Source of the DNA: Eledone cirrhosa
Lineage: Eukaryota
Assembly: GCA_964016885.1 (NCBI GenBank)
Contig: OZ024740.1
Location: 191,890,001 to 191,954,000 of the forward strand
Direction: 5' to 3'
DNA length: 64,000 nt
Shown here piece after piece: positions 24,690 to 38,076 of the stretch; the first letter of the stretch is position 1, and the number at the start of each line of letters is the position of its first letter. Made by a program: the position numbers and the translations under genes. The notes under the pieces were generated by a model, which worked only from the letters and a program-made list of their open reading frames with translations, had not been told where the DNA came from and made no database searches.

Positions 24690-26106
24690 GGGTGACGACT
24701 GTCTTCTTCTTTCCAATAACCTTAGCCTCTCAGAGATAGAAAAAAATATGAGAAGCTTATGAGAACTTTTCTTAAAGACTATTATAGTCTAGATATTTCA
24801 TTTTAAAACACAAGTAAAGTAGTTAATTTCCTAGATATAACATTAGACTTATCTACGGGTATCTACCAACCTTACCATAAACCCAACCAAAATTTACACT
24901 ACTAACACTCACAATATGATCACCCTAAATCTATCCTTAAAAACCTTGCATATAATATATCACTTAGAATTTCTAACCTTTCGTCTAACCAAGATGTATT
25001 TGATAAAAATGCGACCTTTTATAACGAAGCTCTAGCTAGAAGTGGCCACAAAAATAGATTAGTATATATACCTTCTACAAATAATACTACAATCATACAA
25101 CCTAATATTAACAACAAACACCAAATGAAACGTACACACCTAATTGCCACTCACACTATACCCCAAAATACCAACATAAAACCAAATTTCTCTAACTCTT
25201 CTAATATACAGTATAGTAACTCTCAAAAAACTACTCATCCTACAACTCTAATAAATGTTAATAATAAAACTCCTAATAAACAAGCTAAAACACCTAAGTC
25301 AATAAATCTAACTAACAACGTGTGCGGAGAGGTTATTAACAATAATTCTCCTAGTAAACATCAAGATGCATCCTATAAAAACAATAAACAACATAGAAAC
25401 CGTAATAGACAAGTTACTTGGTATAATGCTCCATTTAATTTACAAGTTAAGGATAATATACCTAAACAATTATTTAATATCCTAGAGAAAAACTTCCCGC
25501 CAAACCACAAATACCATCAAATCTTAAATAGATCAGCAGTTAAATTCTCCTACTCAACAACCAAAAACATAAAACAAAATATAAGTGCCTATAATGCATA
25601 TAAATGTAAAAAAACCATAAGTATACCATCAGTACATCAAACTAACCATAATATCTCCTCAGATACAGGATTCAAAAAAGTTGTAACTGTAGAAACAAGG
25701 CAAACTGTCCATTAAAAGGAAATTGCCTTGTTAATAACATAATATATCAATGTAAAGTTAACACTAAGGACTCTATTTATTCATATATAGGAGCTCCTCT
25801 AACAATTTTAAGGTAATATTTAATACCCACAAACATAGTTTTAAAAATGCCGCACTAGCTAATACAACATCTCTAGCTGAAAAAATTAATAGTTATAGAA
25901 CGAGGAATATAGAATATGACCTGACCTGGAGTGTGCTCAAAAGGGCCACCTCTTATCAAAATAGTAGAAATGAATGTAGATTGTGTTCCCAAGAACTTTT
26001 CGAAATAATGAAATCTAAGGATATCCTATTAAATAAGCGACAGGAATTAATAATATCGTGTAATCATAAACTGAGAAAAACATTTAAATATTATAAACCT
26101 AATTAA
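24690..26106 (+). pseudogene. PLE RT C-terminal half plus GIY-YIG, frameshifted
   Basis: Starts at the catalytic DD; VNFLDITLDL, PYHKPN, VTWYNAPF, KFSYSTT, CNC..CPL, IIYQC..YIG, CRLC, CNH. Confidence 0.9.
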
Positions 26107-26600
26107 TATACACTTTAGAAATTAATATATAAATTAATTTTAATTTAGTTAACCTATAATTAATATTCTACTACAGATGAACTGCAAAATTCTGCTTTAA
26201 ATATTAAAAACCTAATTAATATACACTTTAGAAATTAATATATAAACTATTTTTAATTTAGTTAACCTATAATTAATATTCTACTACTGATGAACTACTA
26301 AATTTGGCTTTCCTTCTTACAAACTTCATTTCCTAAAACTGATGCCATTAAGTAAACATATGTAATTATTTTTAATTTAGTTAACCTATAATTAATATTC
26401 TACTACTGATGAACTACATAATTCTGCTTTAAATATTATAAACCTAATTAATATACACCTTAGAAATTAATATATAAACTATTTTTATTTTAGTTAACCT
26501 ATAATTAATATTCTACTAATGATGAACTACATAATTTGGCTTTCCTTCTTACAAATATCATTTCATAGAACTGATACCATTAAGTAAACATATATAATGC
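26090..26600. repeat. AT-rich ~120-bp tandem units at PLE ORF end / 3' UTR
   Basis: tttagttaacctataattaatattctactactgatgaact repeated four times. Confidence 0.85.
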
Positions 26601-33984: not shown

Positions 33985-36205
33985 AGCTTGACCCCCCGTC
34001 TGAACTGTCAGGCGGTGGGTCAGCTCATCTTTACCCCTCCTAGGGGTGAACAACCTGTTTTTAAAAATGTTGTGGCAAAAAAATTTCAATCGTCTGACAG
34101 AAATGTTAAACGAAGCTAACGAAAATAGTGGTGGGGGACAGCGGTAAGAGTTGTAAGCTCGCAAGCTTTAGTCCCCCTTTCCTTCCCAACTAACGTCATA
34201 GAGAAGGAAAAAATAAAATAAAAACAGACAAATCTGCGGAGAAAAATGACGAAAACACAAATCTGGACTTGGATACCAACACCGGAAAAAAAAATTTGAA
34301 AAATTGCATGACAATATTAACACCACAGACAAAGACACGACAAACACAAAAATAACATTTGAAAACAACATCATAACAGAAAGCAAAGCAGACGACAAAG
34401 TCAACACCAATAATATTTCATTTGCACAAACAACAAAGAAATCTTTGACATGTATACATGACAATATTTCAGATGTGGCACAAAGTATAGCAGACGCCAA
34501 ACAATATATAACTGAAGGAGAGAATGGTATTTTATCGGTAAAACTGCCTCAAGAACTCACCAAAGACATTGAAAGTCGAACGGGGGTTTTCCGCACCATC
34601 AACAACACTTCAAAAAAACCTGAACAGCCAACTCAAACAGAAATCAAAACAGTACTTACAGAAGTACTTAATGAAACTACGTTCATAAGAAAAGACAGAC
34701 TGTATGGAAGCCTAGCGATTATTATGAAGAACGAATCGGCGGCAAAAAAATGTGCTTTGTCACCGATTCCTTCAAAAAATTTTACTTTTTATCCATCTTA
34801 TATGGGTAAAATAACTCAACGCATATGGCTGGATGCAATGATGCCAGATGTGGACTACTGCTGGCTCATAGCTGGCTTCATCGATCCAGTGAATGACAAC
34901 GTGATTTCCATTGGGAAAACCACAGGCAATGCGTTCAGTGGAACAGGTATAGAACTTGTAGTGCAAATGAAGCCTGAACGCATCGCCCAAATACCCGACA
35001 GAATCCAATTAGAGGGCCACGGGTATATAAACATTAGCGTGGAGGGGAGAAGGCCGTCCTGTCATATCTGTGCAGGTAGAGGGCACCTGAAGGCCGCTTG
35101 TCCCCAACTCAACAAAAAGAAAACCCTGCTACCAATACCAGCTCCACCACCACCACCACAACAGATAAACAAACAACAAAACTCAGTCCCACCCAACCCG
35201 TCCCTCAGTAAAACTACACCACCACCACAACACAAACAGTCACAACACATTACCCCAAAACAAAATACAGGCCCACCCAACCCCTCACTCAATAAAACAA
35301 CACAACCACCGCAAACACAACACACAACACAGTCTAACATAGTGACATCCATCTCCCCCACAAAGAAAACCAACACGGAAACATTACCAGGAAACATACC
35401 TCTTCCCTCCAACACTGAAGATAACCCAACGAATTCGGAGGAAGAAACGGAGTCCTTCAGACAGATTAAAAGGAAAAAAAGAAAACATGTGCAAAACACA
35501 CAAGGCCAAACAACCCCCACCCAAATGTTAACACAATCCAACAAAACACAAAACACCCCTCCAGCAACAAACAAAACCAAACCTGCACCTCCCCTCTTCG
35601 AAACACTCACACCATCCGAAAAAACGACATTACACTATACTTACATCAACAGAAACAATAATAAATTAAATGAACTCATAAACAATAATCCTTCGGTACA
35701 AACGAAGGTGTAAACTTTGTTTCTTCAGAAAACTACCCACATTTAAAACTAATAAATATCCCAATGAACCTCTTCAAAAAACTAAAAAAGGATTTTAAGG
35801 AGGACGTAGGACCACCCTCTGTCAAACCCATAAACCGCGTCCTACTAAAAAGCTTCCCCCTCCCCTTCCCCTCCCCAACACAACTCCAAACACCCTAACC
35901 CCACCACACACTGACGACCCCACACCACCACAAGACACCCCTTCACCCAACACCCCCGACCCCATGGAAGTTGTGCGACCCGAACCCCGGGAAGCAGAAA
36001 GGTAGGTCTCTACACTCACCTTTGGCTCTGTCGCCACATGGATGTGTTAAGAGTAGGATGTTTGAATGCACGTGGCCTGGGCTCAACTTGGAAGCAGGCA
36101 AAGCTTCTAAATGACCTCAGGTCATGTGGTATAAATGTAATGGTTATCTGTGAGACTCGGATCAGCGTCGTGCGGCAGCTGGCCCCTACCTTCGATGACT
36201 TTGAG
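33985..36205 (+). mobile_element. 5' portion of L1/Tx1-like LINE (5' UTR, ORF1, start of ORF2)
   Basis: Gag-like ORF1 followed by APE endonuclease start; 5' boundary approximate. Confidence 0.75.
34304..35713 (+). CDS. LINE ORF1 gag-like protein with CCHC zinc knuckle
   Basis: VEGRRPSCHICAGRGHLKAACP (C-x2-C-x4-H-x4-C), Pro/Gln/Thr-rich tail; true start probably upstream. Confidence 0.8.
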   Translation: MHDNINTTDKDTTNTKITFENNIITESKADDKVNTNNISFAQTTKKSLTCIHDNISDVAQSIADAKQYITEGENGILSVKLPQELTKDIESRTGVFRTINNTSKKPEQPTQTEIKTVLTEVLNETTFIRKDRLYGSLAIIMKNESAAKKCALSPIPSKNFTFYPSYMGKITQRIWLDAMMPDVDYCWLIAGFIDPVNDNVISIGKTTGNAFSGTGIELVVQMKPERIAQIPDRIQLEGHGYINISVEGRRPSCHICAGRGHLKAACPQLNKKKTLLPIPAPPPPPQQINKQQNSVPPNPSLSKTTPPPQHKQSQHITPKQNTGPPNPSLNKTTQPPQTQHTTQSNIVTSISPTKKTNTETLPGNIPLPSNTEDNPTNSEEETESFRQIKRKKRKHVQNTQGQTTPTQMLTQSNKTQNTPPATNKTKPAPPLFETLTPSEKTTLHYTYINRNNNKLNELINNNPSVQTKV

Positions 36206-36208
36206 GTA
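36038..36208 (+). pseudogene. Truncated LINE ORF2 apurinic-endonuclease N-terminus
   Basis: LRVGCLNARGL...INVMVICETRI (N-x-x-G and ET motifs), cut off by the tandem array. Confidence 0.85.
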
Positions 36209-36295
36209 TGTAAACACACAGACAAACGGATTTTAGAGTCATACTGGTTTTCCGGGGGAACACCTTCCCCCTATTCTCCAGAAAGCCAGACAAGG

Positions 36296-36340
36296 AATAT
36301 TGAACTCGTTTCGTTGTTGTTACAACTCATCAGCAATATT
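36296..36340 (-). ncRNA. Minimal type I HHR, unit 1 (loop III CGAG, non-palindromic)
   Basis: AATATTG CTGATGA GTTGT AACA ACAAC GAAA CGAG TT CAATATT. Confidence 0.85.
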
Positions 36341-36763
36341 TACCTATCTACCGGCCTTTCTGGAGAATTGTAAAAGCACATATCGTTATATGCTTTTTCT
36401 ATGAAAATTAGTAGTGGGCAGACTAATTTGCATAGAGTGTGAGTACGTACCGGTTCAGCGGAGAGGATAAAAACAAATAACGAAACGAAATTAAATTTCG
36501 TTTCGTTTGTAACTCACTTTTGTATGACTGACGCTTAAACAATTAAGTTAAAAATGTACATCTACATATGCATACTGAAATACTAGTGTGTATATGAATA
36601 CACACACGTATACATATGTAGGTGTACGAAGTCTTTCACTGGTCGCTTTACAGTGAGCGGCCCAGCTATTCTGTATGTAAACACACAGAGAAACCGGTTT
36701 TTAGAGTCATACTGGTTTTTCGGGGGAACACCTTCCCCCTATTCTTCAGAAAGCCAGACAAGG

Positions 36764-36808
36764 AATATTGAACTAGTTTCGTTGTTGTTACAACTCATCA
36801 GCAATATT
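36764..36808 (-). ncRNA. Minimal type I HHR, unit 2 (intact)
   Basis: AATATTG CTGATGA GTTGT AACA ACAAC GAAA CTAG TT CAATATT. Confidence 0.9.
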
Positions 36809-37231
36809 TACCTATCTACCGGCCTTTCTGGAGAATTGTAAAAGCACATATCGTTATATGCTTTTTCTATGAAAATTAGTAGTGGGCAGACTAATTTTCA
36901 TAGAGTGTGAGTACGCACCGGTTCATGGGAGACGATAAAAACAAATAACGAAACGAAATTAAATTTCGTTTCGTTTGTAACTCACTTTTGTATGACTGAC
37001 GCTTAAAAAATTAAGTTAAAAATGTACATCTACATATGCATGCTGAAATACTAGTGTGTATATGAATACACACACGTATACATATGTAGGTGTACGAAGT
37101 CTTTCACTGGTCGCTTAACAGTGAGCGGCCCAGCTATTCTGTATGTAAACACACAGACAAACCGGTTTTTAGAGTCATACTGGTTTTTCGGGGGAACACC
37201 TTCCCCCTATTCTCCAGAAAGCCAGACAAGG

Positions 37232-37276
37232 AATATTGAACTAGTTTCGTTGTTGTTACAACTAATCAGCAATATT
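37232..37276 (-). ncRNA. Minimal type I HHR, unit 3 (G8U core mutation)
   Basis: Same motif but core reads CTGATTA. Confidence 0.8.
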
Positions 37277-37699
37277 TACCTATCTACCGGCCTTTCTGGA
37301 GAATTGTAAAAGCACATATCGTTATATGCTTTTTCTATGAAAATTAGTAGTGGGCAGACTAATTTGCATAGATTGTGAGTACGCACCGGTTCAGCGGAGA
37401 CGATAAAAACAAATAACGAAACGAAATTAAATTTCGTTTCGTTTGTAACTCACTTTTGTATGACTGACGCTTAAACAATTAAGTTAAAAATGTACATCTA
37501 CATATGCATACTGAAATACTAGTGTGTATATGAATACACACACGTAAACATATGTAGGCGTACGAAGTATTTCACTGGTCGCTTTACAGTGAGCGGCCCA
37601 GCTATTCTGTATGTAAACACACAGACAAACCGGTTTTTAGAGTCATACTGGTTTTTCGGGGGAACACCTTCCCCCTATTCTTCAGAAAGCCAGACAAGG

Positions 37700-37744
37700 A
37701 ATATTGAACTAGTTTCGTTGTTGTTACAACTCATCAGCAATATT
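37700..37744 (-). ncRNA. Minimal type I HHR, unit 4 (intact)
   Basis: Identical to the unit 2 motif. Confidence 0.9.
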
Positions 37745-38076
37745 TACCTATCTACCGGCCTTTCTGGAGAATTGTAAAAGCACATATCGTTATATGCTTT
37801 TTCTATGAAAATTAGTAGTGGGCAGACTAATTTGCATAGAGTGTGAGTACGCACCGGTTCAGCGGAGACGATAAAAACAAATAACGAAACGAAATTAAAT
37901 TTCGTTTCGTTTGTAACTCACTTTTGTATGACTGACGCTTGTATGATAACGAAACTACTTTCTACTAATGTATTTCGTAAATTTCGTAACTGTGGTTGCC
38001 CCCCACCACCTTCTAATTTTACTCGAGATATGCATATATATATGTGTACATATTTATATAGATATACATACATACA

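What the first reader, a model, noticed from the sequence alone, without database searches (positions are those of the whole stretch)
36673..37140. Repeat unit is almost entirely self-complementary (branched, viroid-like fold)
Visible helices within one unit: ggtcgctt/gagcggcc; ggggaa/ttcccc; ttctccagaaag/ctttctggagaa, which encloses and extends the HHR; aaaagca/tgctttt; ctatg.aaattagt/actaattt.catag; aacgaaacgaaatt/aatttcgtttcgtt; gtacatctacatatg/catatgtaggtgtac; long-range agtcatac/gtatgact and two accggt sites. This helix density, with G-U-compatible pairs, suggests selection on an RNA structure rather than neutral satellite.
Basis: partly seen in the sequence, partly recalled or inferred. 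Interest (0 to 1): 0.75.

Follow-up and report, generated by a model that had tools for sequence, protein, structure and literature searches.

The report
Twin-primed hammerhead retrozyme with conserved fold
This is one unit of a 468-base non-coding repeat, present thousands of times in an animal genome, whose minus strand carries a hammerhead ribozyme motif and a predicted branched fold whose pairings are kept between related families; it likely forms a small RNA circle that a Penelope-type jumping-gene enzyme likely copies into TA repeats from two fixed start points.

Summary
The helices exist and the fold is far beyond shuffles (z about -9.5, both strands, linear and circular), but 'almost entirely' is overstated: 66-70% paired against 60% in shuffles. 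A type I hammerhead lies on the minus strand, and that strand folds better in 46 of 46 family loci. The fold is under selection: subfamily changes avoid paired sites, and hammerhead stems and a long-range helix covary with a sister family about 60% identical. It is a non-LTR retrozyme (9,201 exact cores genome-wide), not a viroid. The added value is the insertion anatomy in 73 copies of this subfamily: 111 of 118 outward ends fall at two fixed sites about 70 nt apart, 100 of these in (TA)n, and 41 of 45 two-armed copies have one end of each kind. That is a Penelope-type footprint. Variants shared by all units of an insertion are A-to-G rich (11/25 versus 18/195), and units cross the cut site without scars, pointing to a circular, sometimes edited, RNA template. 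Cleavage, expression and the partner enzyme are not shown. The scan noted the same pattern before, in this genome and others.

The parts
36206..37940 (-). Tandem array of 3.7 units of 468 nt (retrozyme subfamily A1); one arm only, canonical 3' end lost
   Evidence: TRF; BLAST map; 1.3% from the subfamily majority
36673..37140 (-). The unit of the finding; unit position q = 37141 minus window position
36764..36808 (-). Type I hammerhead motif: 7-bp stem I, CUGAUGA, 5-bp stem II, GAAA, 2-bp stem III with palindromic ACUAGU; predicted cut after GUU between 36771 and 36770
   Evidence: Rfam HH9 36748-36819, E 1e-7, 38.6 bits, below gathering score 52; motif scan; covariation
36280..36351 (-). Hammerhead of unit 1 (stem III loop no longer palindromic)
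37216..37287 (-). Hammerhead of unit 3, core changed to CUGAUUA (G8 position; likely inactive)
37684..37755 (-). Hammerhead of unit 4, intact core
36743..36835 (-). Long helix enclosing the hammerhead (36824-36835 with 36743-36754); different sequence, same architecture by eye in family B
36722..36739 (-). Hairpin GGGGGAA/UUCCCCC with two G-C to A-U compensatory changes between A1 and A2/A3
36705..36997 (-). Long-range 8-bp helix (36705-36712 with 36990-36997; closes round the unit junction on the minus strand); 100% paired in 12 sequences, 2 pairs with two-sided change
37004..37009 (-). Fixed 3' end site 1 of family insertions (q132/q137), in the CUUAA/UUAAG hairpin; inferred reverse-transcription start
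36935..36935 (-). Fixed 3' end site 2 of family insertions (q206); 36935-37003 is the Penelope-type 'tail'
36894..36901 (-). ATGCAAAT motif kept in families A and B although its C is a mismatch in the hairpin; mutated (36898) in this unit; role unknown
34250..36205 (+). Truncated LINE (ORF1 and start of an APE-type endonuclease ORF2) joined to the array with 2-nt microhomology; likely deletion junction, not part of the retrozyme
37941..38035 (.). 5' junction scar with 7-10-nt patches matching the unit, followed by (AT)n/(ATAC)n
   Evidence: TRF

Best explanation
The unit is a non-coding, non-autonomous retroelement (non-LTR retrozyme) whose minus strand carries a type I hammerhead motif and a conserved predicted branched fold; its RNA likely self-cleaves into 468-nt monomers that are likely ligated into circles and likely copied into (TA)n DNA by a Penelope-like reverse transcriptase/GIY-YIG endonuclease. 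Shown: hammerhead motif in every unit, conservation of pairing on that strand, thousands of dispersed young copies, two fixed 3' ends, one per arm in inverted insertions, TA targets, variants shared by all units of both arms, no scar or stop at the cut site. Inferred: tandem transcripts self-cleave (probably as double hammerheads through the palindromic stem III); a host ligase closes the monomer; the enzyme cuts both strands of a TA repeat and primes one cDNA at q132/137 and the other at q206 on the same template; each runs round the circle for a variable length; the two cDNAs are joined at their far ends, leaving back-to-back arms. Some templates were probably A-to-I edited before copying. 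The window's own array lost its canonical end by a later deletion.
For: Hammerhead on minus strand in all four units. 23,662 cores of the A/B type and 9,201 exact family-A cores genome-wide, reversed-pattern controls 0; core intact in 131 of 139 A1 units. Minus strand folds better as a circle in 46 of 46 loci (about 40 insertions, related to each other), by 8-34 kcal/mol. Subfamily changes: 3 compensatory, 8 wobble-consistent, 5 mismatches, 3 gaps on 113 confident pairs; neutral simulation 1.5/13.8/20.3, 0 of 2000 as few mismatches. Hammerhead pairs 93% kept, 7 of 16 with two-sided change, slid controls 33-50%. 73 A1 insertions: 111 of 118 outward ends at two sites, 100 of 111 TA-flanked, 41 of 45 two-ended copies one of each, none the same twice. 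Family B has the homologous two ends. Host Penelope-like families (RT plus C-terminal GIY-YIG) also end at two alternative sites in (TA)n. Two internal start sites and priming on both strands are shown in vitro for a lizard PLE (PMC11167929). 5' ends not piled at the cut site, 1 of 70 versus 1.65 expected; 0 of 146 units with an indel within 5 nt of it. One 9.2-kb insertion has 7+13 identical units on two arms sharing 12 differences from the nearest subfamily. Shared-by-all-units substitutions are A>G in 11 of 25 versus 18 of 195 unit-private ones, p 4e-5; 8 of 18 for those seen on both arms.
Against: Cleavage, circles and expression are untested; in one study 8 of 9 predicted Xenopus retrozyme dimers did not cleave (10.64898/2026.07.22.740005). 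A1 has a GUU triplet and a 2-bp stem III, and Rfam scores are below the gathering cut-off. No autonomous partner sharing sequence was found in 50 of about 10,600 GIY-YIG candidate loci. Compensatory pairs alone within family A are not clearly above chance (P 0.18 and 0.048), and the count of covarying hammerhead pairs is reached by 264 of 500 shuffles. In the finding's own unit the strand difference is small and reverses in the linear fold. The A>G excess rests on 25 sites, is not significant against T>C (11 vs 5, p 0.14), shows no significant neighbour or pairing preference, and singly covered sites give no independent support (5 A>G vs 3 T>C). The lizard PLE used uncleaved RNA as its main template in vitro. 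One non-A1 copy (L177) has both ends at site 2.
Confidence: 0.72

Rival explanations
1. Same retrozyme and same Penelope-type enzyme, but the template is a linear RNA: an uncleaved multimeric transcript of a homogeneous genomic array, or a cut monomer copied repeatedly by template jumps. The fold then serves enzyme binding and the hammerhead, not a circle.
For: Unprocessed RNA was the main substrate of the lizard PLE; PLEs form tandems without known circles; homogeneous arrays exist that could be sources; read-through of the cut site is also expected on uncleaved RNA.
Against: Variants shared by every unit have a spectrum unlike DNA mutation (transitions 21/25 vs 102/195; A>G 11/25 vs 18/195), which editing of one unit of a multimer cannot spread to all units; no scar in 146 junctions and no 5' pile-up argue against jumping on cut monomers.
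Confidence: 0.2
2. A genome-encoded viroid-like RNA that also replicates RNA-to-RNA through an opposite-strand intermediate, the chromosomal copies being by-products.
For: Branched fold and size resemble hammerhead viroids; shared variants include T>C (5 of 25; 5 of 18 on both arms, p 0.051), which would be A>G on the opposite strand; cloned mussel circles differ from genomic copies.
Against: No ribozyme found on the + strand; structure selection is one-sided; T>C excess is not significant overall (p 0.19).
Confidence: 0.05
3. A neutral satellite or DNA-level element (MITE- or Helitron-like) whose hairpins come from microsatellite expansion or single-stranded DNA intermediates.
For: TA-rich DNA alone can reach z -7; one hairpin is microsatellite-like and expands in family B.
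Against: Conserved hammerhead core with covarying stems, strand-specific wobble, variable 5' truncation with fixed 3' ends, dispersal over many chromosomes.
Confidence: 0.03

Closest known systems
Metazoan non-LTR retrozymes (Cervera and de la Pena 2020, PMC7229834, parts 2-4 of 6 read; review PMC7761336, passages; Li, Clavereau and Pollet 2026, 10.64898/2026.07.22.740005, parts 1-3 of 5 read)
   Same: Tandem non-coding units, each with a type I hammerhead with short stem III, GC under 50%, highly self-paired predicted circle, thousands of copies, co-occurring with Penelope-like elements.
   Different: Unit of 468 nt (above the 150-450 given in 2020, inside the 51-972 range of the preprint). 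In the parts read, the mobilising enzyme and priming are hypotheses, and no fixed double ends, inverted arms, TA targeting or shared edits are described. Cleavage and circles were shown there, not here.
Penelope-like elements (Frangieh et al. 2024, PMC11167929, parts 1-2 of 4 read; Craig et al. 2021, PMC8557442, passages; Arkhipova et al. 2013, PMC3846280, passages)
   Same: Two internal start sites separated by a tail, adjacent inverted 5'-truncated copy with the tail on one end only, AT-rich or (TA)n targets, tandem copies.
   Different: No ORF; tail of 69-74 nt rather than 30-40; arms of up to about 31 identical-length units; no sequence shared with the PLE loci examined.
Hammerhead viroids and viroid-like circular RNAs (PMC7761336, passages; Avsunviroidae details recalled)
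   Same: Small, non-coding, branched fold, hammerhead.
   Different: Type I hammerhead in one polarity only; chromosomal retrotransposon with target-primed ends; no evidence of infection or RNA-RNA replication.
Newt satellite 2 and axolotl retrozymes (PMC7229834)
   Same: Weak stem III with palindromic loop, compatible with double-hammerhead cleavage.
   Different: The snRNA-type promoter reported for the newt repeat (cited in PMC2220036, passage) was not supported here: host U1/U2 promoters lack the octamer and no convincing PSE match was found.

Membership tests
Metazoan non-LTR retrozyme | Tandem repeats with a type I hammerhead in each unit | tested here: met
   4 of 4 units match HH9 on the minus strand, 3 with intact core; 131 of 139 A1 units intact
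Metazoan non-LTR retrozyme | No protein coding | tested here: met
   Longest stop-to-stop frame inside the array 84 aa; these short frames were not scanned against Pfam
Metazoan non-LTR retrozyme | Few hundred nt, GC below 50%, highly self-paired monomer | tested here: met
   468 nt, GC 38-39%, z about -9.5
Metazoan non-LTR retrozyme | Dispersed mobile copies without LTRs | tested here: met
   Copies on many contigs, ends mapped, no terminal direct repeats; PBS and PPT not looked for
Metazoan non-LTR retrozyme | Target-site duplications | tested here: inconclusive
   Ends lie in (TA)n, where a duplication cannot be read
Metazoan non-LTR retrozyme | Self-cleavage in vitro | not testable with these tools
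   Needs transcription assay
Metazoan non-LTR retrozyme | Expressed as circular RNA | not testable with these tools
   Only contigs of runs of unrecorded kind were available
Penelope-like element (autonomous) | RT plus GIY-YIG ORF | tested here: not met
   No ORF in the unit
Penelope-like insertion footprint | Two alternative 3' ends (tail), inverted 5'-truncated arm, microsatellite target | tested here: met
   the window's own array has lost this end
Penelope-like insertion footprint | Terminal sequence shared with an autonomous PLE of the host | tested here: inconclusive
   None in 50 loci of 8 families out of about 10,600 candidates
Hammerhead viroid / viroid-like RNA | Ribozymes in both polarities | tested here: not met
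   No + strand ribozyme by Rfam at E up to 10 or by motif scan
Hammerhead viroid / viroid-like RNA | RNA-only life cycle without chromosomal copies | tested here: not met
   Thousands of genomic copies with retrotransposition ends
Rfam Hammerhead_HH9 (RF02275) | Score at or above gathering threshold 52 | tested here: not met
   35-39 bits

The most novel reading that the evidence does not exclude
Each two-armed insertion is a fossil of one RNA circle, sometimes already A-to-I edited, that a Penelope-like enzyme copied from both ends of a double-strand break at once, starting at two fixed sites and rolling round the circle up to 30 times. This would be direct genomic evidence for the unproven step in the retrozyme life cycle and would explain the tail and inverted arm of Penelope elements as twin target-primed reverse transcription, with RNA editing feeding heritable variation into the family.
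Probability: 0.5. Interest if true: 0.75.

Novelty: new member of a known kind. Interest (0 to 1): 0.55.

Why it matters
A highly paired fold is expected of a retrozyme and is not news. What matters is that this young family records its own insertion chemistry. The papers read propose, but do not show, that Penelope-like enzymes copy retrozyme circles. Here there are two defined start sites, a defined target and a defined 468-nt substrate, so the long-standing question becomes directly testable in vitro, and circular versus linear templates can be told apart.

Tried and rejected
RNA evidence: no RNA holder listed; contigs of four runs (organisms A, B, C) cover 28-30 of 30 bins with family-A variants but cannot show strand, circles or expression. 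Autonomous partner: BLAST of the unit against 50 GIY-YIG loci, hammerhead scans and comparison of 3' ends of 8 families found none; a pattern for other stem II types gave 30 mostly single hammerheads, no partner recognised (output was cut). Promoter: host U1/U2 upstream regions (12 loci) share TCAGT near -58 and have no canonical octamer; no convincing match to the unit, so an snRNA-type promoter is not supported. First mutation-spectrum test on 23 insertions without separating shared from private variants showed no clear A>G excess (12 vs 7). ADAR neighbour and pairing context not significant. Pile-up of 5' ends at the cut site: absent in A (1 of 70) and B (2 of 46). Insertion of the array into the LINE was rejected: the rest of the LINE is not within 4 kb on the right. 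miRNA hits in Rfam are hairpin/microsatellite noise far below gathering scores. Family B rows are misaligned in several helices of alignment A1, so understates or blurs their pairing. Host species not identified; named hits of a host PLE protein include bivalve molluscs. Literature searches for the combined mechanism found no paper describing two fixed ends or shared edits in retrozymes; no supplements were read and could hold such observations.

Full report
Observation. The stretch is the second of 3.7 tandem 468-nt units at 36206-37940. Folding is far better than dinucleotide shuffles on both strands: z -9.66 and -9.79 linear, -9.6 and -9.5 circular. The paired fraction is 0.70 and 0.675 against 0.60 in shuffles, so the fold is a branched set of hairpins, not near-complete self-complementarity. 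In 25 other stretches of the window the median z was -1.0 and the lowest -7.3, in TA-rich DNA, so energy alone is not decisive.

Which strand. Rfam gives Hammerhead_HH9 on the minus strand of all four units (E 1e-7 to 1e-6, 35-39 bits, below the gathering score of 52) and no ribozyme on the plus strand; a motif scan agrees. The motif is type I, with a 7-bp stem I, a 5-bp stem II and a 2-bp stem III whose loop is palindromic; unit 3 has a change at G8 and unit 1 in the stem III loop. Across 46 family-A loci (about 40 insertions, not independent) the circular fold of the ribozyme strand is better in all, by 8-34 kcal/mol; the alignment fold gives -151 against -127. In the finding's own unit the gap is only 4 kcal/mol and reverses in the linear fold.

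Family. The 3.0-Gb host genome holds 9,201 exact family-A hammerhead cores and 23,662 cores of the wider A/B type, with reversed-pattern controls at 0. The window's subfamily A1 is small (191 exact matches to its diagnostic hairpin) and young (most copies under 1% from the majority). Subfamilies A2 and A3 are 87-95% identical to it, and family B (429-511 nt) about 60%, colinear round the whole unit. Contigs from three organism labels hold family-A sequence.

Selection on structure. With a structure from A1 alone (113 pairs above 0.8 probability), differences among six subfamilies give 3 compensatory, 8 wobble-consistent, 5 mismatched and 3 gapped pair types; random placement of the same changes gives 1.5, 13.8 and 20.3, and none of 2000 runs had as few mismatches. 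Variable columns are 20 of 226 paired and 53 of 242 others. Compensatory changes alone are weak (P 0.18; 0.048 with A3 as reference). Unit-private mutations, which arose after insertion, hit paired sites at the neutral rate (125 of 195, paired fraction 0.66). Between A and B the hammerhead keeps 93% of cells paired, with two-sided changes in 7 of 16 pairs; slid controls give 33-50%; the covariation score beats 500 of 500 shuffles but the pair count does not (264 of 500). The long-range helix agtcatac/gtatgact is 100% paired with two two-sided changes. B rows are misaligned in several other helices.

Insertion anatomy. I mapped 73 A1 insertions: 36 from best hits to the window unit, 37 from the first 100 listed of 191 pattern matches. 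111 of 118 outward 3' ends (ribozyme strand) fall at q200-208 or q129-138, and 100 of the 111 are followed by (TA)n. Of 45 copies with two outward ends, 41 have one of each and none has the same site twice; 25 have a single canonical end and 3, the window copy among them, have none. Family B has two homologous ends about 51 nt apart. One non-A1 copy has both ends at site 2. The host has about 10,600 GIY-YIG candidates; those examined include RT plus C-terminal GIY-YIG elements whose families also end at two alternative sites in (TA)n. Inverted 5'-truncated arms, a tail on one end and microsatellite targets are known PLE traits (PMC8557442, PMC3846280, passages). A lizard PLE protein cuts and extends both strands and starts at two internal sites that bound the tail (PMC11167929). 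No PLE sharing sequence with the retrozyme was found in 50 loci.

Template. 5' ends are scattered; 1 of 70 lies within 5 nt of the cut site, 1.65 expected. None of 146 units crossing the site has an indel there. Variants confined to one or a few insertions are often present in every unit of both arms. One 9.2-kb insertion has 7 and 13 identical units on its two arms, with canonical ends; assembly polishing could add to such homogeneity. Distinct substitutions shared by all covering units are A>G in 11 of 25, against 18 of 195 for unit-private ones (p 4e-5; 10 of 22 for single insertions, 8 of 18 for those on both arms). This fits a monomeric circle carrying A-to-I edits better than DNA mutation or gene conversion. 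Against: n is small, A>G versus T>C among shared variants is not significant, context preferences are not significant, and singly covered sites show 5 A>G and 3 T>C. Transcription-linked mutation bias at source loci (recalled) could add to the skew.

The window copy. It has one arm. Its left end joins the endonuclease start of a young LINE with 2 nt of microhomology, and the rest of the LINE is not on the right, so a deletion likely removed the canonical end. The right end is a 5' truncation with a patchwork scar before a microsatellite. All three units covering q45 share one variant.

Comparison. The element meets every testable feature of the metazoan non-LTR retrozymes (PMC7229834, parts 2-4; PMC7761336, passages; 10.64898/2026.07.22.740005, parts 1-3). 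Those texts show cleavage and circles for other species and propose PLEs as the mobilising partner; in the parts read they describe neither fixed double ends nor shared edits. Seven literature searches found no such description; supplements were not read. It fails the viroid tests (one ribozyme polarity, chromosomal retro-copies). My reading and the counts above up to one search were in hand before the scan's notes returned anything (blank); searches then showed that the scan noted the same two-ended pattern and edits on other DNA in this genome and in others. These are unchecked AI notes and are not counted as support. One of them suggested an internal promoter; my test against host U1/U2 promoters did not support an snRNA-type one.

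Verdict. A real, selected RNA fold on the minus strand, belonging to a new member of a known class. The fold itself is ordinary for that class; the insertion record makes the retrozyme-Penelope link and the circular template testable. Interest 0.55.

Noticed in passing
window 9308 (+) and 29939 (-): Two further hammerhead-like motifs of another family, with AU-rich stem I and an AUAU(A/G)UAU stem III; similar motifs at L064:1033, L068:9289, L071:7851, L077:4462.
   Followed up: no
window 63492-63752 (+): GIY-YIG endonuclease fragment of a Penelope-like element.
   Followed up: no
window 34250-36205 (+): Young LINE family (1,415 candidates, top 40 at 98%) with a 487-aa ORF1 frame and an APE-type ORF2, truncated here.
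   Followed up: partly
window 59306-59377 (+): Weak tRNA match (31 bits), possibly a SINE head.
   Followed up: no
window 26083-26598: AT-rich tandem repeat of period 113/232.
   Followed up: no
L071:8579-9901, L072:2190-2764, L091:1145-1968: Sister family B, 429-511 nt; one hairpin has grown by a (TA)n expansion; base of stem II is often a mismatch and the triplet is GUA or GUU.
   Followed up: partly
window 36894-36901 and all subfamilies: ATGCAAAT is conserved in A and B although its C mismatches in the hairpin; host snRNA promoters examined lack it. Unexplained.
   Followed up: partly
L203-L204 (G000:C1:5.738-5.753 Mb): Strongly unequal arms: about 31 units on one, under one on the other, with partly shared later variants.
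   Followed up: partly
L261-L286 upstream regions: Host U1 and U2 genes share TCAGT near -58 and a (T)TACCTCCCTT/TATTTCCCTT element near -255, no octamer.
   Followed up: no
L062:7510-8419: Another two-copy 459-nt tandem next to TA repeats with a CUGAAGA...GAAACCGUC motif and long stem II.
   Followed up: no
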